Below, one piece after another: positions 40,898-58,984 of a DNA stretch of 64,000 nucleotides (positions are counted from its first letter, which is position 1; each line of letters begins with the position of its first letter). This DNA comes from Eledone cirrhosa. Its lineage: Eukaryota. Made by a program: the position numbers and the translations under genes. The notes beneath the pieces are model-generated. The model saw only the letters and a list, made by a program, of their open reading frames with translations. It was not told where the DNA came from and made no database searches. The DNA is taken from contig OZ024743.1 of NCBI GenBank assembly GCA_964016885.1, forward strand, positions 121,272,001 to 121,336,000, in the 5' to 3' direction.

Positions 40898-43800
40898 TCA
40901 TTCCAAAGCCTCTGGATACACAACATTCTTGGTTTTGCCCTGTGGTGCCACAATGAAGGGACAATCAGGGTTCCCAACCCTTGTTGTGCCAACATAGAGT
41001 TGACCCTGTGAAAAGACAGGATCTACCAGATTCAACCCAACGACTTTCAATGATTGCCCTTGAGATTTATTAATGGTCATGGCAAAACTGAGCCTGATCG
41101 GAAATTGAAGTCTTTGAAATTCAAATGGCAAATCAGTTGGCTTCAGAGGTATTCTGGGAATTAAACAATTGTCACCAGCAAATTTTCCTGACATGATTGT
41201 AACTTCTAGAATATTGGACATCATATTTTTGATGATGAGTCTTGTGCCATTACAAAGTTTTGGAGGATCCAGATTGCGAAGTAGCAAAACCGATGCTCCA
41301 AGCTTCAGTATTAGGTTGTGTGGAGGAATTCTAGCTTGTTCAAGACTGTTCAAAAATTCAGCTGGATAGTTTACAGCCTGGTCTTGAGAAGTGATTGTGT
41401 CAACTGATTTGTAGCATATTTTCTCTCCCAGTAACATCTCCAGCAGTTGATTTCTTTCACAGCAACATTTTTAGGTGCTAAGATTGCTCGTTCACAGAGC
41501 CATTTCGGATCACATTGCCTGGTCTGACTGTTTGGAAACACCCTGGCAATCAGTTCTTGTTCTGTGTCAATGATATGGCCAAATGACAACTGAATATGGT
41601 CATTGGAGTCCTTTTCAAGAAGTCCATTTCCCAATTTAAGTAGTTGGATGGCAAACACACTGACACCTTCGTCACCAGTTAAGTGCACTCGCATGTTGGT
41701 TGTAAGTCTCAGCAGCTGAAAGTGGGGCCAGAGATAGGATGTTTTCAGACAGGCATTGACCTGATCAGCTCGAGTCCCTCGAAAAATTACAGGCAGAGTT
41801 TGTCTGAAATCACCAGGAAGAACCATTGTCACTCTTCCCATTATGCAACAAGTTTCTCTCGATCCATTATCGTCCGGTCCAAAGCTTCAATTGCTCCTTT
41901 ATGGATCATAGTAGCCTCATCCCAAATTATCATCTTGCATGTTTGCAGAAGCTTGCCCTTGGGTGAGTTATTCTTGATGTTGCAAAAAGATTGTTCATGT
42001 CGTGTGGGACCTATGGGCAGCTTAAACATGGAGTGTGCAGTTCTTCCTCCATCCAGAATTGTTGCTGCAATGCCACTTGAAGCCACAGCAAGGGCAATAT
42101 GTTGCTTTTGGCGAACTTTTGCAAGCACGAGGTTTATGAGGAATGTCTTGCCTGTGCCAGCAGGAGCCTCGATAAAGAAAAGTCCTCCCCTGTCATTTTG
42201 AATGTTTTCGATGATGTTGTGGTAGGCGTATTTCTAGTCATCCATCAATCGAAGTTCATTTTCATCCACAAACTTACGCAATGCTTGAATATCGTAGTTT
42301 GTCTCCTGAAAAATGTCTTGTGCTACCTCCATTTCTTCATCTGGCTCTGGCATCCCGCAGTTAGCTAATGTGCTATTCATTGCCCGAACTGGATGGGACA
42401 GGTCACACAGAGCTTGATTGTAAATCCTGGGGGTATATTCCATATACATATTGCCATGATGTCTTCGGGCTAGGTGTAGATAGTCGTCCGACATATTGTT
42501 TTTATACTCCTGCCAGAGTAGATGAGCTTTATCAATTTCACATGGTGTGAGCATAATAGCAAATAATTGTCTTATTTGACTGGCTACTTGAGTGATTGCT
42601 GCTTCTTCTAGGCACTTCTTCCAGTGACCATTGTCATACAGAAGTCCATGCTGTTTATATTCTTCTTGGTATGTTGCGCACTCCCTTCCTCTGAAGCACC
42701 TAAGATCCTCAAATGACGTTGGTCCTCGAACAGTAGCCGTAAATAAAAACATTCTCTGTTGTTGGGATGGACATTGCAAACACGCCCAATAGCATCATTT
42801 GACTTGACTTCATGACCTTCCACTAAATGACCCTGCTTTCTTCGATTCCAGTTCTTGCAATTTGTCCAGGTGTAGTATGTTGGGACTTCAGCATATAGGA
42901 GGGATCGAGCAAATTCATCATTCTGGCAGAGTTTACTGAAAGCAATTAGTGTAGTGTCATGTGATGCTTGTGCCAACTGATGAGCAGTGATCTCAGTGAA
43001 GTACACTCTCTGTCCATTTTCCAGATGGACTGTGAGGTTGACTACTGTTGGGTGGCGCTGGTGGATATCAAATCCAAAGATTCGCCAGATAGCTTCATTG
43101 CTGGAGATGTATCGACCTGTTTGATACCGTTTGACCTCATCCAGCCCACCATCATTGAGTTCTTTGTCAGTAATAAAGGTAGCCATGTCACTGCCCTTGT
43201 TGATATATTTTGTGACATATAGGATTGCCTTGACGGAGCTGCAATACTCAACATTGATATGAGCTTTTAAAAGTTTACACAATTTGTTATGTGGGACGAC
43301 CCACTGATTGTTTATGGTCAGCTCCTCTCCTCGAACTGTTAGGCTTGCAGTATTGCCTCCATGTTCTGGTCTACGCCTACGATAAATGGGGTATCCTTTA
43401 TTGTCAGTCCGAGTTTCCCGAATAAAACTATAGGATAATGTTGGCTGCATTTTTTATCTTTCATGCAGAGAGAGGCTGGATTGATAACTCCACATGGACC
43501 ATGAATGAGTTTTGACTTGATGGTTTCAAAGAGCTCTGGATCACCACCTTTATCAGGCAACTCTGCTGGAATGATCTTATCAACATCATCTGATCTCATC
43601 TTCTCCTTGCACCAGATTAGTGTGTGAGAGTGAGGAAGACCTCCCGTCTGCCACTCAATAGTGGTCATCCAAGCACTAAGCTCACCAAATAACCTTCCTT
43701 CTTTAAGGAGCCAGACATGTTTTCTCTTTGCTTTTCATGGGAAATCCGAGCAATGAGGTCATGTCGATCCTTTGGTTTTTGATTTTGAAATAATTCATTT

Positions 43801-45262
43801 GATATTTCTGACCAGTTTGAATTGCATGTAAATGTAATGAAGAGATATGGCCGACCAAATTTTCTGACAAGCCATTGCATCTTGCGTACGTTCACGCATG
43901 TAACGTGGTCCTCCCGTGAAGCTTGATGGTAGTATGACTGGCTGGCCAATATTTCTTGGGTCAACATCAGAATTGATGGCATCTCTAAGGTGGATGTAGT
44001 TATCTGCCCTCAACTTAGTTTGATTCCTTCGCAGAAAACCCAATCTTTCTGTTTCAATTTTGGCATACATGCCAACCTTGAACTGGCTGGTTACTTCTTT
44101 GAATCGCAGAACTTGGTTGAAGTGAGCACGTACCATGAAATATTAAGCATAGAATTATTTGCAGCTGATTGATCGGCCAGTTTCTTGTCCCGTTCCTGGG
44201 CTGATCTGCCATAGCTGAAAATGATATTCATCTTGACCATTCCAAAAGATGAGCAGATATTGAAGTGAATCATAGGCTCTATGAGTTTCACAAATTCGCT
44301 CCAAATGTCCACTTTGTTTTTAAAACAATGTTACGTCGTTCATGCTGTTCATCAACCATTATGATTGCAACTTCATCAGTGACAGGTGCATTGAATCTGC
44401 GTTCATGTTCTGAAGCTGGGCGTTTGTCTGCCCTAATGATGATTTTACGATCTCTGGTGTCGTTCGTATGCTCCAGTGAATATTTAAATACACTGACGTA
44501 CATGTGATGTTGGTGAAGCATTTCTTGTAACTTTATGACTATGTAGAACTGCAATCCACCATGAACATTGGTACATCTTTGTTGTGCCTGTGTTTCATTT
44601 CCACCCATGAAGTAAACCTGCACAAATTTGTGAGGCTCCTGTGAAAGTGGCAGAAGGCCACCCATTAAGTGGTAACACTGTCCCTGAATTTTATAAGTTG
44701 TACAGAATCTAAAGTCAGTCACATTCCTGTCAGCCCCAAAAGATGTCATTTGAAAGGCAGAATTATATTTTATGATGTATTTATTGAAGTGTTGTGCTTC
44801 TGGTGTATGCTGAAGGAGCAGATTCTTCAGAAATTCAGGAGCTTCTTGTATTATTTTAAGGGTCACTTTGCCTTTTGAGCTGCATAAGCATGGTGTTTGT
44901 GCTGCCCACTTCTTGACACCACAATACTGGCAGCATTTGTTCATTTTCCCAAAGTTGATTTGGGGATTACTGCTGTAGTCCTTTTGATGGTCATAAGAAA
45001 AAGCACGCATCAGCCAGTTCATTTTATTTGTGGCTCGTTCTCCTGCTCGGGCAGTAGAAACGATGTGCTTGATTAGCATTTCATCTGATGTGCTGCTGTC
45101 CCTTAATTTGTTGTTCTCGTAGTAGCAGCAGTCCTTTGTTCCCTTTCACCCAAATGGTGTGCTCGTGTTAAAGCTGTTTGGGCTCTGTTAGCGCTGTGTT
45201 TTCTTTCTCTTAGCCTCTGAAGCGGACCTTCCATATAATGATCTGGAACGTTTTCTAGGCAT
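40898..45262 (-). pseudogene. Helitron Rep (HUH-Y2)/PIF1-like helicase, frameshifted
   Basis: IEWQTGGLPHSHTLIW, YVTKYINKG, IALAVASSGIAATILDGGRTAHS, GDFRQTLPV, FAMTINKSQGQSL, GQLYV. Confidence 0.95.
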
Positions 45263-47070: not shown

Positions 47071-47689
47071 CGGAACCAAATAAATATATATTATTTTAAA
47101 AAAAGATTCCAGTTGCATTTTCGATTTCATCCTTTTTCCTTATACTTTCACTCGTGTAGGAAACCGGTTATTTTTCATTTTGTAAAAACAACCTATATTA
47201 TATATAGAGTTATAAACTCAAATAGTCTTTTACAATTAAATAGCTCAAAGAAAGGAATATTTCTGAATCGTGTAATACAAATGAATATATGATAGGGATA
47301 AACACTGATACAAGTATACATGTGTTCGCATTGCAAATGACCAAGTTAGCTAGATTGAAAAATACTAATTAAAATAATACGGTTTGCCTCTCTCGATTTA
47401 AAATAATAAATCAATAAAAACAAAGCTATATTGGCAATAGCCGTGATACCTGGACAAATTTTAAATTCTAAATTTTAAATTTGTTTCGCAACAATTAAGT
47501 GAAATTTCCTATTCCTGTGCTCTTCTGCAGGTATCCAGAAATTGGTAATTTTCACTTCAAAATACTTAAGAAGACTAAGAGAAATGTGCTGTTGAAAGCA
47601 CATGTATCACAGCACGTCCCATACTCGTGCCGCTAAAAATAGCAGCCGGTTTTATGGGACTAAAAATTAGCTCAACGCATGGAGCCGAG

Positions 47690-47866: not shown

Positions 47867-47933
47867 ATATATATGTATGTATGTGTATGTGTATACGTAC
47901 ATACATATATGTATACAGACGTACAGTAGCATG

Positions 47934-48011
<78 letters not shown>

Positions 48012-48177
48012 CATATATATACATACAGGTACACATACATATATGCACGTATCAGTTTAGCGGACGCTTATTATAACGCCGCTTTGTTCGTTTGTAAACA
48101 AACTGAACAGCCTGAATTTTTATGCCGTACGGTGTTAAGGCAACCACGTCACCTTTTTGTTCAACACTGACACAGGA

Positions 48178-48220
48178 ACGATGTACTAGTTTCAAGCTTG
48201 TTAGCTATCATCAGCACCGT
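48178..48220 (-). ncRNA. Minimal type I hammerhead ribozyme
   Basis: acggtg CTGATGA t-agct-aaca-agct-t GAAA ctag TA catcgt. Confidence 0.85.
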
Positions 48221-48454
48221 ATACCCTTCTGCCAGATGGTTGAACGTTCGAAAGTATATACTTTCCTTATGAAAATTAACGGCTGAGCAGCCTAATTTGC
48301 ATATCAAGTGAGTTCGGTCAGGCGTACCGAGAACGATAAGTTGTAATAAAATGAAAACGAAATTTCATTTCTCACTCTTAGTACGGCACTTACTTAAATG
48401 TAAGTATGTGTGTATACGTACATACATATATGTATACAGACGTACAGTAGCATG

Positions 48455-48554
<100 letters not shown>

Positions 48555-48729
48555 TACAGGTACACATACATATATGCACGTATCAGTTTTCGTTTTCATT
48601 TTATTACAACTTATCGTTCTCGGTACGCCTGACCGAACTCACTCGATATGCAAATTAGGCTGCTCAGCCGTTAATTTTCATAAGGAAAGTATATACTTTC
48701 GAACGTTCAACCATCTGACAGAAGGGTAT

Positions 48730-48772
48730 ACGGTGCTGATGATAGCTAACAAGCTTGAAACTAGTACATCGT
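48730..48772 (+). ncRNA. Minimal type I hammerhead ribozyme
   Basis: Same motif: 6-bp stem I with one G-U, palindromic CTAG loop III, predicted cleavage after GUA at 48766. Confidence 0.85.
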
Positions 48773-48931
48773 TCCTGTGTCAGTGTTGAACAAAAAGGTG
48801 ACGTGGTTGCCTTAACACCGTACGGCATAAAATTCAGGCTGTTCAGTTTGTTTACAAACGAACAAAGCGGCGTTATAATAAGCGTCCGCTAAACTGATAC
48901 GTGCATATATGTATGTGTACATGTATGTATA

Positions 48932-48999
<68 letters not shown>

Positions 49000-49690
49000 C
49001 ATGCTACTGTACGTCTGTATACATATATGTATGTACGTATACACACATACTTACATTTAAGTAAGTGCCGTACTAAGAGTGAGAAATGAAATTTCGTTTT
49101 CATTTTATTACAACTTATATATATATATATATATATATATGATAGGAATAAACACTGATACAAGTATACATGTGTTCGCATTCCAAATGACCAAGTTAGC
49201 CAAGATGGGTTTGTTTTTATTGATTTATTATTTTAAATCGAGACAGGCAAACCGTATTATTTTAATTAGTATTTTTCAATCTAGCTAACTTGGTCATTTG
49301 CAATGCGAACACATGTATACTTGTATCAGTGTTTATCGCTATCATATATTCATTTGTATTACACAACTCAGAAATATTCCTTTCTTTGAGCTATTTAATT
49401 GTAAAAGACTATTTGAATTTATAACTCTATATATAATATATATATATACATTTATGAACATATATGCAAGGACAATCTCATAATATTCAACTCCCCACAT
49501 CTCACATTTCCAGAAGAAAGACTCCATCGTCAATGAGTGTGTATGTAGGTATATATGCATGTATGTATGTTTGCATGTATGTGTGTATGTACGTAAGTAT
49601 CTATATATGTATGTATATATATATTTGTGTGTGTATATACATACATACATACATACATACATACATACATACATACATACATACATACAT

Positions 49691-50754: not shown

Positions 50755-53700
50755 TTGTAGAACACCTATTTATATGAATGATACATAAACTTTAACATAT
50801 AAATACAGCGTTGTTATATTATATTACATTCATAAAGGAATATACTAAGTAACGGTTCTTTTTGTTCTCGATTCAACCGATTCAAGAACAACGTTTAAAA
50901 CACAGTTGTAGAATTAAAAACTAACTGAAAAGAAATATTACCCAAGCTGTGAATAACTTTAAATTTGATTCTGACAGAACTTTGTCGTAACTTTTAAAGA
51001 TCATCGACTATGTTGAAAAATAAATACGAAATATTAGTGAATAGACGAACTCATCATGGCAAAAGGTACAAGTCTCCTTCGACCAAATCGCAACTACAAC
51101 CGTTGTACACAGTGGAGCTACGAGCTTAACAAAGTATTATATGAAGCATACAAACAATCTGAACCCCAAAAAGTTCGGTTTTATGCAAAGGCTAAAAACT
51201 TTATGGAACTCCAAACACCCAGAATTAGACTTTTCTCCAAAGCATTTAAATGAACAGGCAAAACGTATCATTAGATGTAAATTGATACATCTAACGGAAT
51301 TGAGTGATACTACAAATACAGCCCTTGTATACAACCACCCCACCTCCAATGACAGACAAAGAGAATGGCCAGCTAAATCTAACAGTGAACAGCTCACCAA
51401 CAATTTTGCTGAAATCCATCCCACTTCCACTGAAGAACAGCGAGAAAGGTCAGCTGACTCTAGTAGTAATTGTCACCACATCAACACCGAGGCTGAAATT
51501 CATGACTCTACTGAACAAACAGAGCACCAAAAACTTGTGGGCACCCTACAAGTGATATGGAACGATATGTTTCAAGAGATACACAGCCTTAATGTGAGTG
51601 ACAGACCATACAACACTAGAGTCAGTAAAGAACCCACTAAATTGGAATTGGAAGCGGTGAACGAAATAGCTGGCAATTATCTGAAGGCTATACGATCTAA
51701 AGGTATAGAAACGACATTCGAAACGCTTAATGTTTTGTTATATGTTTCAGCTGTCACATTGCTATCATATAACACACATCTAAAACCACGCAATCAAGAT
51801 ACAAACAGAAAGCCTGAACCAGCGTGGATGCGAAATTTAAAAACCAAAATTTTGTCCCTGAGACGAAGTATCTCACACATCGCAGTCGTTATGAAATGCA
51901 ACATAGAGAGCAACTTCACACGACACCAGGAAGACCTAAAGAAAAAGTTAGAGACGATTTGGAGATGCAAAATTTTAAACTTTGAACTCCAAATTACATC
52001 AGTTGAAACAACAACTCACAGCTACAACAGAAAGACTAAAATATAAGTCAACAGCACATAAACGACAAGTGCTAAATAGATTGTTTGCCAGAGATCCTAA
52101 ATCAGTTTATCGCAACTTCGGTGGCAAAAGCTCAATCCCTGTAAACGACAGCCCTTCAAAAGAACAGGTTGAGAGCTACTGGAGATCTGTATGGGAAACG
52201 GATGACGGATTCAACAGACAAGCTAATTGGCTAAAAGAACTGGAACAGGACTACTGCCAACATGTCCAGACAAAACAATATGACATAGATGGGTCAATAC
52301 TGGAAACAGCTCTACAGAAAATGTCGAATAGGAAATCGCCAGGCCCAGACCTCATTACAGGATACTGGTTGAAGAATTTCACTTTCTATCGGCAAGATCT
52401 CATACGGCTGTTTACAGAAACCATTAAGGGCACGCAAGAACTGCCCAGATGATTATCAACTGCCATTACTCTCCTCATTCCCCAAAATAGCCAAACAACC
52501 CTTGCTAAAAATTACCGCCCAATTGCCTGCCAAAACATCATGTATAAATTATATACTGGGTGCCTTAACCTGTTCTTACAGGATCACTGTGCTACCAACA
52601 ACATCATAACACCCGAGCAAGCTGGTGGAAAGAGGGAGGCGTGGGGTTGCATAGATCACCTACTAACTAACAAAATGATTCAGGAAAAAAAAAAAAAGAA
52701 TCGCAGAAACATGACTGTCGTGTGGCTGGACTATCAAAAAGCATTTGATAGTGTACCTCATGGGTGGATTATTAAGGCTTTACAGTTAGCTAAAGTCCTA
52801 CAACCATTGGTAGCTGCTGTTGAACGCCTGACCAAGAACTGGTACACCAATTTGATCCTTAGAGGTGAGAAGGAGCAGGTTAAGACTGATAAGATACATT
52901 ACCAGAAGGGCATCTTTCAGGGTGATAGCTTGTCAGTGCTTCTCTTCGTTCTCTCACTGAATCCACTATCTTACCTACTCAGGAAACAAGGTGGACAAAG
53001 AAGTGGGCCCAGAAGTATCTCCCATCTTTTCTTTGTTGATGACCTGAAGTTGTATGGGCCAAATATCAATGACATCAAGAAACAATTGGACCTCATTACA
53101 CAATTTTCAGCCGACATCAAAATGAAATTTGGTAAGTCCAAGTGTGCATATTTGGCAGTAAAACGTGGAAGAGCTGTGCCCTCCTCTAGAAATTTAGAGA
53201 TGAACGGCCTGACAATACAACCTCTGCAGTCAGGTGACAACTACAGATATCTTGGACAGGATGAGAATGTCAGATATGATGGACCCATAAATAAGGAGAG
53301 AACCAGAACTGAATACCTCAGAAGAGTAAAGAAAATATGGTCATCAGAACTGTCAGCATACAACAAATACATTGCCCACAATACTTATGCTGTGCCAATT
53401 CTAACGCCAACATTTGGCCTACTGAACTGTCATTGCAAGAACTAAGTGAGATGGATGTTAGAACTCGAAATCTTCTCAGTGTTACTGGGAACTTTAACAT
53501 CAATGGTGATGTGGATAGGCTATACTTCCCACGCAAGAAAGGTGGTCGGGATCTAAAATCAATATTAACAACATATGAGACCCGGATAGTAACAATGAAG
53601 CAACACCTTCAACAGAGGAAAAAGGTTGGCAGCCATCTTGCCCAGGTTTATGAGCATGAAAAAAGAAATATCATTAGAATAGCGACTGATCTGGAGGAGA

Positions 53701-54638
53701 GATATGGAATAAAGCCTGATATAAATCTCTCACCCAGAGAAATAGGAAGATCCTATTCAATGTTCAAACAAGATAAAAAAATTGACCAATTTACAGAAAA
53801 AGTTTTGCATGGATACTTGAGGCGTAAAACACAGACCATAGAGGGGATAAACCACTCAAAAAGCCTGGCATAGAGTTCCGACAAGTTTATGACATCACAC
53901 CTTGAGGGATATCTATATGCAATACAGGAACAAGAACTCCCTACCAAATATCTGCTGCACAAAAGAGGAGGGCCAACAGCTGACAATAAATGTAGGCTAT
54001 GTAAAACAAAGATCGAGGATGTAAGCCACATTGTTGCCAGCTGCGAAAGAATGTCATCTCGCTACTACTTCCCCATGAGACACGATGGGATAGCTAGAAC
54101 CATCTGGAACGCAATTCGGAAAACAAAATTAACAAACGAGGAAGAATATATTGAGACAGATGGCACTAAGGAATACTGGTGGAACCTGAAAATAAAAACT
54201 GCCACCAAATTAAAGCACAACCGGCCTGATATTGTAGTTTGGGACCACACATTGAAAACGTGTTCTGTTGTGGAGATCAGCTGCCCACTTGATGTAAACG
54301 TTGTCAGAAAAATACAGGAGAAGGAGAACATCTACGGACCATTGATGAGGAGATTACAAATCCAGTATCCAAGATACACCTTTAGCTTCATACCCATCAT
54401 TATTGGGGCTACGGGTTATATAGCAACCCGCTTGGACCAAAGTATGACTGAACTTGGATTTGCGGACAAAAAGCGCAGCTCCCTAATTCATAGTCTACAA
54501 ATGGCTGCGATAGCTGGCACCTTCAAAATTTGCAAAACATTCTTGCGATTCAAGGGATGACAATTTCTTTTCTTTTACAACCTTGCCACCAAGAAGGTGG
54601 CCGGTCAAAAAAATATACTCGAAATTAAGAGAAAGAGA

Positions 54639-54640
<2 letters not shown>
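50755..54640 (+). mobile_element. Near full-length R4/Dong-type non-LTR retrotransposon; ORF 51056-54560 disrupted
   Basis: KSPGPD, WLDYQKAFDSVPH, GIFQGDSLS, HLFFVDDLKLY, CRLC..HIVASC, RHD, NRPDIV; frameshifts and two in-frame stops. Confidence 0.92.
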
Positions 54641-54705
<65 letters not shown>

Positions 54706-55056
54706 AAAATGGAACGGGAACAAAACAGAGAGGCAGTACAAACAAAGGTTTATTAGTTTCACGCTCTCGAATATATATATATAGACAAGATTTATATACG
54801 TATACATACATAAATACATATAAGCGATGGAGTCATTCTTATGGAAATATAAAATGTAGTGAGCTGAGAAATATCAATATTATGAGATTATCCTTGCAGT
54901 TTGTATACAGAATGCTGTTGTCTCCAATCTGTCAGGATAATCTCAGTTAATTGAAGTTTCCAGCTCACTAACTTTTATGTGAGAATTTGACATGATACGG
55001 GCATATATACATATATATATATGACAGGTTGATCGGACAATTCCTATATACATATA

Positions 55057-55621: not shown

Positions 55622-55840
55622 TCACTATTCAGCCATAATAAAATGAATATGTATATACACATATATACACACACATATGTGTGGATATATATATATATAT
55701 ATATATGTATAATAAATTCATAGGGTTGGGTATATTTTATCTAATAATTCTTCAAACTTGTAATTTTATATATATATACAAATGTGTGTGTGGTGTGTGT
55801 GTGTGTATGTATGTATATATATATGTATTTAAATATATGT

Positions 55841-55904
<64 letters not shown>

Positions 55905-56153
55905 AAAAGAATGAAATGAAATTTCATTTCTCACTCTTAGTACGGCTGTTACTTAAATATAAGTATGTATACGTACATACATATATGTATACAGACGTAC
56001 AGTAGTATGTATATATATACATTCATGCACACACATATATATGAACGTATGAATTTACCGAACATTTATTATAATTTTCGGTTTGTTTGTAAACAAACAG
56101 CCCGACAGTGTTCGGCAACCATCGTCGCCCTATTGTTCAACACTGGCAAAGAG

Positions 56154-56196
56154 ACGATGAACTAGTTTCAAGCTTATTAGCTATCGTCAGCATCGT
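56154..56196 (-). ncRNA. Minimal type I hammerhead ribozyme
   Basis: acgatg CTGACGA t-agct-aata-agct-t GAAA ctag TT catcgt. Confidence 0.85.
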
Positions 56197-56924
56197 ATAC
56201 CTTCCTGTCATATGATTGAACGTTTGAAAGTATATAGTTTCCTTATGCATATTAACGGCTGAGCAGCCTAATTTGCATATCGTGTGAGTTAGCCGGCCGG
56301 GCGCTCCGAAAACGATAAATGAAAAAGAATGAAATGAAATTTCATTTCTGACTCTTAGTACGACTGTTACTTAAATATAAGTATGTATACGTACATACAT
56401 ATATATATACAGACGTACAGTAGTATGTATATATATATATATACATACATGCACACATGTATATATGTACGTATGAGTTTACAGAACATTTATTATAATG
56501 TTCGGTTTGTTTGTAAACAAGGTATACGATGCTGACGATATTGTAAGTGTTGAACATAAGAGCAACGATGGTTGCCGAACACTGTACGGCTTAATTCGGG
56601 CTGTTTGTTTACAAACAAACCGAACATTATAATAAATGTTCGGTAAACCCATACGTACATATATATATGTGTGCATGTATGTATATATATATACATACTA
56701 CTCTACGTCTGTATGCATATATGTATGTACGTATACATACTTATATTTAAGTATTAACCGTACTAAGAGTGAGAAATGAAATTTCCTATCATGCTTTTCC
56801 ATTTATCGTTTTCGGTACGCCCGGCCGACTAACTCACTCGATATGCAAATTAGGCTACTCAGCCGTTAATATGCATAAGGAAAGTATATACTTTCAAACG
56901 TTCAATCATATGACAGGAAGGTAT

Positions 56925-56967
56925 ACGATGCTGACGATAGCTAATAAGCTTGAAACTAGTTCATCGT
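56925..56967 (+). ncRNA. Minimal type I hammerhead ribozyme
   Basis: Same motif; perfect 6-bp stem I acgatg/catcgt; predicted cleavage after GUU at 56961. Confidence 0.85.
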
Positions 56968-58984
56968 TCCTTTGTCAGTATTGAACAAAAGGGCGACGAT
57001 GGTTGCCGAACACTGTACGGCTTAATTCGGGCTGTTTGTTTACAAACAAACCGAACATTATAATAAATGTTCGGTAAACCCATACGTACATATATATATA
57101 TATGTGTGCATGTATGTATAAATATACATACTACTGTACGTCTGTATACATATATGTATGTACGTATACATACTTTTATATATATATATATATATATATA
57201 CAGAGAGAGAGAGAGGGGGGGAGTGTATGTAAGACCGAGAAAGAGAAAACAATTTTTTTAAATTACCCATTTGCAGATTTCATATGTATTTCTTCTTAAA
57301 TTCTTTCTGTAAACAATGTTATTCAGATTCGAATTACATATAGTTTCACAAGCTGTTGATCTGGCAGAGTTGTTGGAACCTTGCATTAGATACCATACAG
57401 TATTTGTTGAACCCTCTTCCCCAAGGTTAACTAATCTTATCATTCTTTTAGCGTCGCCAAATAAAATAGTTGTCAAAGGCATTTGATTAATGGGGTTTTT
57501 CGAGCGTTAAAATTTATGACTTGTGATATTTATTTCAGCCCTTTGCATTCTGAGTTCGCCTGTGACGTCAATGGTGCTAAGCTGTACCACCCCTACCTTT
57601 CTGTAGGACAATATTGATGACGTGGCGAATGCTGGTCTCTCTTAAAAATAATTATTACACATTCTTGCACTTTGGAGAGGGATTTTTCTGGTGGAGATCT
57701 ATTAGAAATGTAAAGTCACCAAAAGCTTCAGAGCAATAAAGAACAAACACTCATGATAATTTAGATATTATATTCTGAGCGAGGTTTTGACAGATTCTAA
57801 ATAAGATTTGCGTTGAGATAGATTTAGCTAAGAACAAAAAAAGCATTATAGCCCACAACTTGAAACCTCACAGATTTGGGCTTCTAGTAGAGCAAAACTG
57901 TGTTGTAAGATCTTATATTGCCTTCGAAATATTTGTGATTGGAAATCGTTTTTTTACTCATTAAATCACGAAGATATGATGTTCGTCTTCGCTTAGGCAA
58001 TATGACTGTGTAACAACAGTTATTGGATTTGCCATCAAAACGACATTCTGATAAATGTTTTCCACACTAACCTTGACAAGCAATATCCATGGGCCCACAC
58101 AAATTACCAAATGACGCAGTTGGGTTCCTTCTGAACAATTAGTTGTTGACTGTTATTTTGAACTATCTCCTATTTTATACTTAACCTTCTCTTTCTTGTT
58201 TCTTCTATATTTCTACGGTGCCTTGCCTCTTTTTCTCTTGCGCTTCATTTTTTTTTTGTCTCATCCTTATTCTTTCTCCTGTCTCCTTCCTTCTGTTTCT
58301 TGAGGACGTGTTACAGCCATTTTGTTTCTTGCCAATTCCCGTGAAGCATTGATAATTACGAGATCTTGTTCCCTTGCTGGAGAGTTAGAATTGCGTCTCG
58401 CTGTTCTCGAGGTTTTTATGTTCATAGCCCTCGTCTCGAGCCATCTTTGTATCTAATCTAAACTATAATAAAGTAAGGAGCGCGGGACTGCCTACGGTTT
58501 ATAATTTTTTATCCCCTTAGTAAAATAAGTTGGATTACTTTGAATAAATAATGAATGAATATTACATAATTTATCTACTAAATTTCGTGGCTGTTGATTA
58601 AATATATTTTGTTTATTTAAAGATTCACTCCTTTAAAATTTCCGAAATGTCAACACTTCTGGTTGGCGATCGCTTAAAAAACATACTAATTTTCTCCTAA
58701 TGCAGTTTATATATAATATCGTCTTTTTTTATTGTATCATGGATTACGTTAGTGATTACAAAAGACAGTGTAACGCAGTCTTCATTCAATTTCTATGTAT
58801 ATTGTGAATTATGATTTTATTTGATGTATCATATCTACATGTATATATACTTGCGTATAATATCAATATACACACTTTTTTCTGGTTTTTCTGCTAGTCA
58901 CAATAATGAATTTACCAATAATGAATTTACCAACTGCTAGTCACAATAAAGAATTTACCAACTGAAGACCATTATTTGATAACA

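What the first reader, a model, noticed from the sequence alone, without database searches (positions are those of the whole stretch)
55902..57176. Diverged second subfamily keeps the ribozyme intact, with changes only at tolerated positions
Seen: the monomer differs from 47880-49118 at many sites. The HHR (56154-56196 minus, 56925-56967 plus) differs at only four: stem I G-U to A-U, core N7 T to C, loop II aaca to aata, and H17 A to T. Known: N7, loop II and H17 are the variable positions of the HHR consensus. Inferred: selection for the fold in two lineages, each of which also produced the same tandem-plus-inverted architecture.
Basis: partly seen in the sequence, partly recalled or inferred. 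Interest (0 to 1): 0.72.

Follow-up and report, generated by a model that had tools for sequence, protein, structure and literature searches.

The report
Retrozyme subfamily keeping its hammerhead ribozyme
This is one decayed copy of a very abundant non-coding jumping repeat that carries a predicted self-cutting RNA motif; the two neighbouring versions are too alike to show selection on that motif, but more distant sister families show it clearly, and the mirror-image layout is likely produced anew at each insertion by Penelope-type enzymes.

Summary
The four differences in the 43-nt hammerhead are real, at the stated coordinates. They do not show slower evolution: 4 of 43 inside against 35 of 307 outside (p 0.46), and none changes both sides of a pair. 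Only their placement at tolerated sites is mildly unusual (p about 0.03). Wider sampling supports the idea. The family has over 25,000 motif copies. A sister family 37-40% diverged keeps 11 of 11 core bases, and 6 stem pairs change on both sides across 9 variants. The layout is not convergence: about half of sampled insertions of either subfamily are inverted, and 31 of 34 two-ended loci end at two fixed sites 57-72 nt apart, the Penelope 'tail' signature. A box upstream of the ribozyme matches the host's U6 upstream motif. Verdict: a new member of a known kind (non-LTR retrozyme). Cleavage and expression are untested. This scan had already reported the family, its ends and the promoter at other places in this genome.

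The parts
55902..56519 (-). Minus arm, about 1.4 units of the 431-nt monomer; outer end at the distal terminal site (E2), against a (TA)n tract
55902..55960 (-). About 57-60 nt 'tail' between the two fixed end sites, present on this end only; holds a palindromic hairpin (55913-55930)
   Evidence: edges approximate to a few nt because the end merges with TA repeats
56154..56196 (-). Intact type I hammerhead motif; predicted cleavage between 56160 (U17) and 56159
56231..56279 (-). Upstream box (56268-56279) and TATA-like word (56231-56236) of the minus arm
   Evidence: function inferred
56520..57176 (+). Plus arm, about 1.6 units; outer end at the proximal terminal site (E1), against a (TA)n tract
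56526..56540 (+). Third, broken hammerhead next to the inversion point: 5' strand of stem I and CUGACGA remain, 32 nt (stem II to 3' strand of stem I) are missing
56842..56890 (+). Box TATGCAAATTAG (56842-56853) and TATATA (56885-56890); candidate U6-type promoter
   Evidence: longest invariant block outside the ribozyme; same box at -77 to -79 of the 3 top U6 loci and the top U6atac locus; function inferred
56900..56986 (+). Long hairpin that extends stem I and carries the ribozyme at its tip
   Evidence: predicted folds
56925..56967 (+). Intact type I hammerhead motif: stem I 6 bp, CUGACGA, stem II U.U plus 3 bp with loop UAAUAA, GAAA, palindromic 2-bp stem III, U17; predicted cleavage after 56961
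57050..57075 (+). Hairpin outside the ribozyme with two-sided base changes between subfamilies A and B
47880..49118 (.). Comparison element of subfamily A (minus arm 47880-48588, plus arm 48589-49118), hammerheads at 48178-48220 (-) and 48730-48772 (+)
55806..55901 (.). (TA)n target tract on the left; a shorter one follows 57176

Best explanation
This is an inverted, decayed insertion of subfamily B of a non-coding hammerhead repeat family with tens of thousands of copies, a non-LTR retrozyme that is likely copied into TA microsatellites by Penelope-type enzymes and whose source copies were likely selected for a working ribozyme fold. Shown here: a 431-nt monomer, copy number, subfamilies, an invariant core, two-sided stem changes, two fixed end sites and TA targets. 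Inferred: a source array is transcribed, probably from the U6-like box plus TATA inside each unit. Neighbouring ribozymes would pair through the palindromic stem III and cut the RNA into units that are ligated into circles. A Penelope-like RT/GIY-YIG protein would cut a (TA)n tract and prime both DNA ends at two sites 57-72 nt apart on the RNA. Copying of more than one unit gives tandem arms; priming from both ends gives the mirror layout with the tail on one side. Selection would act on source RNAs only; inserted copies decay. This locus has one intact ribozyme per strand and would not release a unit-length RNA.
For: 25,824 exact matches to the A/B-type motif, control 0; 30,609 to a pattern outside the ribozyme; 3,000 to a B-specific pattern. 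No ORF of 110 aa or more in the element. Core 11 of 11 invariant over 8 consensuses against 145 of 303 outside. 95.6% of cells paired and 6 pairs with two-sided change in 9 variants; 0 of 500 shuffles reach the covariation score. B vs D: all 9 pairs kept with 10 of 18 positions changed, 289 of 400,000 simulations. Family D also comes up with a pattern that holds no ribozyme bases; 27 of 30 loci gathered that way have an intact core. 144 of 153 mapped sense 3' ends fall at two sites, 126 of 153 are followed by (TA)3 or more, and 31 of 34 two-ended loci have one end at each site, none both at the distal site. Tail, tandem/inverted layout and microsatellite bias are described for PLEs (PMC8557442 passages; PMC11167929 parts 1-2). 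RT plus GIY-YIG ORFs exist in the genome. A U.U-based stem II with 2-bp stem III self-cleaves in axolotl (PMC7229834 part 3).
Against: The A vs B comparison itself is flat. Five of the six two-sided pair changes sit on the single long branch to family D, so they are not independent events, and only 117 of 500 shuffles is reached on the 'pairs with two-sided change' measure, which is not significant. Part of the sample was collected with core patterns. The highly conserved G10.1-C11.1 pair is lost in A, B, C and F, and U17 is not one of the two fastest triplets (PMC3138052 passage), so activity may be weak. Eight of nine Xenopus retrozyme dimers did not cleave in vitro (bioRxiv 10.64898/2026.07.22.740005 part 3), and PLE mobilisation in vitro did not need ribozyme cleavage (PMC11167929). 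No autonomous PLE sharing sequence with the monomer was found in 50 GIY-YIG loci. Inner (5') ends are not enriched at the cleavage site, 4 seen against 4.4 expected, in a test disturbed by microsatellite artefacts. Box-to-TATA spacing is 43 nt against 47-49 in U6 genes.
Confidence: 0.8

Rival explanations
1. The ribozyme was active in the common ancestor (G10.1-C11.1, as in family D) but is a weakened or idle passenger in the A/B branch; what is selected there is the overall RNA fold, the promoter and the RT start hairpin, and the core survives because A, B, C and F are only 2-18% apart.
For: Flat inside/outside rate for every A/B/C/F pair tested (chance of zero core changes 0.15-0.33 per pair); loss of the G-C pair at the base of stem II and its further drift to C.A in subfamily C; constraint elsewhere in the unit; PLE insertion without cleavage in vitro (PMC11167929).
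Against: Within A/B/C/F no consensus changes a core base, while N7, H17, loop II and one stem I pair (G.U, A-U, U.G) change repeatedly; the four A/B changes all fall on tolerated sites (p 0.027); the axolotl U.U variant cleaves (PMC7229834).
Confidence: 0.2
2. The units are only the truncated terminal repeats (pLTRs) of an autonomous Penelope-like element, not an independent retrozyme.
For: Tail, tandem/inverted layout and TA targets are PLE features (PMC8557442); retrozymes are related to pLTRs in Xenopus (bioRxiv 10.64898/2026.07.22.740005).
Against: Sequence past the distal end site runs on into the next monomer, not an ORF, in the copies read; long pure arrays exist; no monomer homology at the ends of PLE ORFs in 50 loci, only 3 loci with apparently independent insertions; the ribozyme has the canonical retrozyme build, not the minimal PLE build with an extra base after A9 (PMC4209133).
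Confidence: 0.07
3. A DNA-level satellite or foldback/MITE element; the inverted layout comes from recombination or a transposase, and the motif is incidental.
For: Palindromic layout; local arrays that spread a core mutation (12 of 16 listed copies of one array carry a C3 change) show DNA-level amplification does occur after insertion.
Against: About half of the insertions have no inverted arm; the two outer ends differ by a fixed tail instead of being equal terminal repeats; two-sided changes keep an RNA fold.
Confidence: 0.03

Closest known systems
Metazoan non-LTR retrozymes (Cervera and de la Pena 2020, PMC7229834; parts 2-4 of 6 read, plus passages)
   Same: Non-coding 150-450-bp tandem units, low GC, canonical type I hammerhead, thousands of copies. 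The axolotl HHR_Amex2 has the same U.U at the base of stem II and a 2-bp stem III.
   Different: Unit 422-506 nt; many insertions are short inverted pairs; fixed two-site ends and TA targeting are not described in the parts read; expression and cleavage not shown here.
Vertebrate retrozymes as non-autonomous PLE derivatives (Li, Clavereau, Pollet 2026, bioRxiv 10.64898/2026.07.22.740005; parts 1-3 of 5 read)
   Same: Co-occurrence with PLEs; monomers, dimers and multimers.
   Different: Their evidence is pLTR homology, which I did not find here; mine is the end signature. This locus fails their 'active' criterion of two consecutive complete ribozymes.
Penelope-like element insertions (Craig et al. 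2021, PMC8557442, passages; Frangieh et al. 2024, PMC11167929, parts 1-2 of 4)
   Same: Partial tandems, inverted arm, one-sided tail between two RT start sites, microsatellite or AT-rich targets.
   Different: No ORF; tail 57-72 nt rather than 30-40 nt.
PLE minimal hammerheads (Cervera and de la Pena 2014, PMC4209133; parts 1-2 of 4 read)
   Same: Type I, palindromic stem III region predicted to need dimers, many subfamilies with covariation.
   Different: Ours has the canonical 6-bp stem I and 4-position stem II without the extra base after A9, and lacks G10.1-C11.1 in the A/B branch.
Newt satellite 2 with snRNA-type promoter (Coats et al. 1994; not held, seen only as a citation passage in PMC2220036)
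   Same: Hammerhead repeat with an internal snRNA-like promoter.
   Different: Cited as Pol II; here the match is to U6/U6atac upstream regions and not to U2.

Membership tests
Type I hammerhead ribozyme | Core CUGANGA, GAAA, U16.1-H17 | tested here: met
   11 of 11 invariant over 8 consensuses
Type I hammerhead ribozyme | Stems I-III supported by covariation | tested here: met
   stems I and II: 6 pairs with two-sided change; stem III never varies, so no covariation there
Type I hammerhead ribozyme | G10.1-C11.1 pair (highly conserved, not absolute) | tested here: not met
   U.U in A, B, F; C.A in C; G-C in D; U.U precedent that cleaves in PMC7229834
Type I hammerhead ribozyme | Match to an Rfam hammerhead model | tested here: not met
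   0 at gathering; none among 130 matches at E up to 10
Type I hammerhead ribozyme | Site-specific self-cleavage | not testable with these tools
   needs in vitro assay or raw RNA reads
Non-LTR retrozyme | Short non-coding low-GC tandem unit with one type I hammerhead per unit | tested here: met
   periods 422, 431, 466, 506 nt; about 40% GC (base counts); no ORF of 110 aa or more in the element
Non-LTR retrozyme | Two consecutive units with complete ribozymes | tested here: met
   met by the family (arrays); not by this locus, which has one intact motif per strand
Non-LTR retrozyme | No LTR, PBS or PPT | not tested
   no dedicated search; ends do not form LTR pairs
Non-LTR retrozyme | Expressed as linear and circular unit-length RNA | not testable with these tools
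   no RNA holder listed
PLE-mobilised element | One-sided tail between two fixed end sites; tandem/inverted layout; microsatellite target | tested here: met
   144 of 153 ends, 31 of 34 two-ended loci, 126 of 153 in (TA)n
PLE-mobilised element | Sequence shared with the pLTR of an autonomous PLE | tested here: inconclusive
   none in 50 of 150 listed GIY-YIG places, out of 10,595 candidates
U6-type (type 3 Pol III) promoter | Host upstream box plus TATA at matching spacing | tested here: inconclusive
   box matches 3 of 17 U6 and 1 of 10 U6atac upstream regions, the top-scoring ones; spacing 43 vs 47-49 nt; activity untested

The most novel reading that the evidence does not exclude
A self-sufficient RNA parasite whose whole cycle is written in its 430 bases: a borrowed host U6-type promoter, a dimer-dependent hammerhead that has survived loss of the G10.1-C11.1 pair, and a hairpin where a Penelope enzyme starts copying at two sites from both ends of a cut TA tract. 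Its subfamily tree is a natural mutagenesis series of the ribozyme (G-C to U.U to C.A at 10.1-11.1; U, A and C at position 17).
Probability: 0.45. Interest if true: 0.58.

Novelty: new member of a known kind. Interest (0 to 1): 0.33.

Why it matters
The finding as written (a second subfamily with an intact ribozyme) is ordinary: subfamilies with covarying hammerheads are described for PLE repeats and retrozymes. What has value is the family context. The one-sided tail and TA targets are genomic evidence for the proposed but unproven link between animal retrozymes and Penelope-type enzymes. The U6-like box offers a testable answer to how such repeats are transcribed. The natural series at 10.1-11.1 and position 17 can be assayed directly. 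The scan had noted the ends and the promoter at other loci of this genome, so this locus adds mainly the quantitative test of selection.

Tried and rejected
Rfam: no hammerhead match; the miRNA-like matches there are microsatellite artefacts below gathering score. Inside/outside rate for A vs B: not significant. Sequencing runs: no RNA holder listed; contigs of two unlabelled runs were laid and show subfamily variants only, which says nothing on expression. Autonomous partner: 50 GIY-YIG loci screened by BLAST and a profile, no shared terminal sequence. More distant families: a canonical-pair pattern gave 19 places, 7 of them D variants and 12 isolated motifs; only one of the 12 had a weak profile match. 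Pile-up of inner ends at the cleavage site: none, but the test was disturbed by the internal TA palindrome; the scripted inversion tally in the same call was unusable for A (27 of 27) and I used read by eye instead (one search gave 18 of 30 for B). U2-type promoter: no octamer in the 300 nt upstream of 12 U2 loci. RNA-editing lead: A>G 96 vs T>C 57 on the sense strand (p 0.004), but G>A also exceeds C>T (159 vs 108) and array copies are not independent, so left open. Coats 1994 is not held. Literature searches for a published description of this family listed none, but they cover only the held open library; I read no supplements, and those of PMC7229834, PMC4209133 and the 2026 preprint, or Repbase/Dfam entries, may list it. 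The tool repeat finder was swamped by TA tracts.

Full report
Setting. The window lies in a 3.0-Gb animal genome rich in TA microsatellites. The finding covers one insertion (here B, 55902-57176) and compares it with another (A, 47880-49118). Subfamily letters are my labels.

Observation. They differ from those of A at the four named sites and no other. The register is that of a canonical type I motif: 6-bp stem I, CUGAYGA, a four-position stem II with a 6-nt loop, GAAA, a palindromic 2-bp stem III and H17. Two things were missed. The base of stem II is U.U instead of the usual G-C in both lineages. A third motif at 56526-56540 has lost 32 nt including the cleavage site, so each strand has one intact ribozyme. 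Rfam does not recognise the motif.

Is four few? No. Outside the motif the window copies differ at 45 of 307 aligned columns and the subfamily consensuses at 35 of 307; one-sided Fisher p is 0.24 and 0.46. 163 of 308 windows of 43 nt have four or fewer differences, and zero changes in 11 core bases has probability 0.17-0.26. The single stem change alters one side only. What carries some weight is placement: four random substitutions land only on tolerated sites in 2.7% of 200,000 simulations.

The family. An A/B-type motif pattern matches 25,824 places, a B-specific pattern 3,000, and a pattern outside the ribozyme 30,609; controls 0. A pattern excluding the U.U gave 11,006 places, mostly family D, a 466-nt unit homologous over its length and 36-40% diverged. 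From the fetched loci I took 183 distinct near-full monomers, kept 159 (two per locus) and built 8 consensuses from clusters of three or more; 27 monomers, including subfamily C, were left out of that tree. On it the 11 core columns never change while 145 of 303 ungapped outside columns are invariant (p 4e-4); stems I and II change 16 times over 20 columns. On nine real copies, one per variant, 95.6% of cells pair, six pairs change on both sides, and the only unpaired cells are at 10.1-11.1; 0 of 500 shuffles reach the covariation score, though 117 of 500 reach the count of pairs. Five of those six changes lie on the one branch to D. For that branch, 10 of 18 paired positions differ and all 9 pairs hold, against 289 of 400,000 simulations. 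Some loci were gathered with core patterns, but D also appears with the outside pattern, and 27 of 30 loci so gathered have an intact core, the other three a single core change. One stem I pair takes four forms: U-A, A-U, G.U, U.G. U17 is shared by B, C and most D, so A17 is probably the derived state.

Where selection acts. Inserted copies do decay in the core. Among the first 100 of 3,000 B copies listed with fixed flanks, 16 belong to one array (12 with a C3 change); of the other 84, six have a core change, 6 of 504 sites (counted by eye), the same order as 2.3% private divergence outside. This fits selection on source RNAs and not on genomic copies (inference). The rest of the unit is not neutral either: a hairpin at 57050-57075 shows two-sided changes between A and B, and TATGCAAATT is the longest invariant run outside the ribozyme.

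Architecture. Read by eye, 17 of 30 B loci and 13 of 26 distinct A insertions have arms on both strands, with different unit numbers and turning points; these loci are the best matches to a 301-nt query and so lean to full units. Sense 3' ends cluster at two sites: 144 of 153 mapped ends, 57-60 nt apart in A, B and F and about 72 nt in D, and 126 of 153 run into (TA)3 or more. In 31 of 34 loci with ends on both strands one end is at each site; none has both at the distal site (ends upstream of the anchor are not seen). The finding's element follows the rule (55902 distal, 57176 proximal). PMC8557442 (passages) describes partial tandems, inverted arms, a one-sided tail and microsatellite bias for PLEs; PMC11167929 (parts 1-2) shows a PLE protein cutting and extending both strands and starting at two internal RNA sites that bound the tail. 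The layout is thus best read as a product of each insertion event, inherited as a mechanism, not as convergence. RT plus GIY-YIG ORFs are present (9 of 12 ORFs scanned carry both domains), but none of 50 loci shares terminal sequence with the monomer.

Promoter lead. The invariant box matches, with 0-1 mismatch in 12, a box at -77 to -79 of the three top-scoring U6 loci and the top U6atac locus, each with TATA at -30; 14 other U6 and 9 other U6atac places lack it and may be retrocopies. U2 upstream regions lack the octamer. In the repeat a TATA word follows at 43 nt rather than 47-49, which would put a start near 56915, just before the extended stem I. T runs inside the unit would be expected to stop Pol III, so read-through or another polymerase is needed (own knowledge). 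Untested.

Known relatives. PMC7229834 (parts 2-4) defines metazoan non-LTR retrozymes and reports an axolotl motif with U.U at the base of stem II and a 2-bp stem III that cleaves weakly as monomer and well as dimer. PMC4209133 (parts 1-2) already reports hammerhead families full of covariation in single genomes. The 2026 preprint (parts 1-3) links retrozymes to PLE terminal repeats and found cleavage in 1 of 9 dimers tested. GUC and GUA are named as the fastest triplets in PMC3138052 (passages). The element works like a non-LTR retrozyme and meets the sequence-level criteria at family level; cleavage and circular RNA could not be tested.

Earlier notes of this scan report sister or identical families, two-armed insertions with fixed ends and the U6-like box at other places of this genome; none near this locus. 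They are unchecked notes; I count only my own tests.

Verdict. Observation confirmed; interpretation partly supported. New member of a known kind; interest 0.33.

Noticed in passing
window 500-545 (+): A different hammerhead of the PLE minimal type (extra base after A9), next to a long TA tract; not homologous to this family's profile.
   Followed up: partly
window 7635-7675 (-): Another hammerhead-like motif; a similar one lies in the neighbouring stretch L231.
   Followed up: no
window 4903-5187: Inverted remnant of subfamily A without the ribozyme part.
   Followed up: partly
window 40898-45145 (-): Broken Helitron: Helitron_like_N, PIF1 and Pif1_2B matches in separate ORF pieces.
   Followed up: partly
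window 51045-54950 (+) and 21540-22307 (+): Broken LINE-type retrotransposon pieces with RVT_1 (and zf-RVT) matches.
   Followed up: partly
window 47270-47360 and 49142-49410: The A element is flanked by related inverted sequence of another repeat, suggesting nested insertion.
   Followed up: no
G000:C1:70056827-70076894: Array of subfamily B in which 12 of 16 listed units share a C3 core change: a probably dead ribozyme amplified locally.
   Followed up: no
G000:C1:5738327-5752443 (L151-L170): About 31 tandem units of family D plus an inverted unit.
   Followed up: partly
L283, L285, L286, L293-L301: Isolated, probably old hammerhead-like motifs, most with a CATG or CACG palindrome in stem III, with little or no homology to this family.
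   Followed up: partly
L242, L255, L259, L275: Minimal hammerheads beside GIY-YIG ORFs, as described for PLE terminal repeats.
   Followed up: no
family-wide: Sense-strand A>G excess over T>C among copy differences (96 vs 57), a possible RNA-editing trace, with an unexplained G>A excess too.
   Followed up: partly
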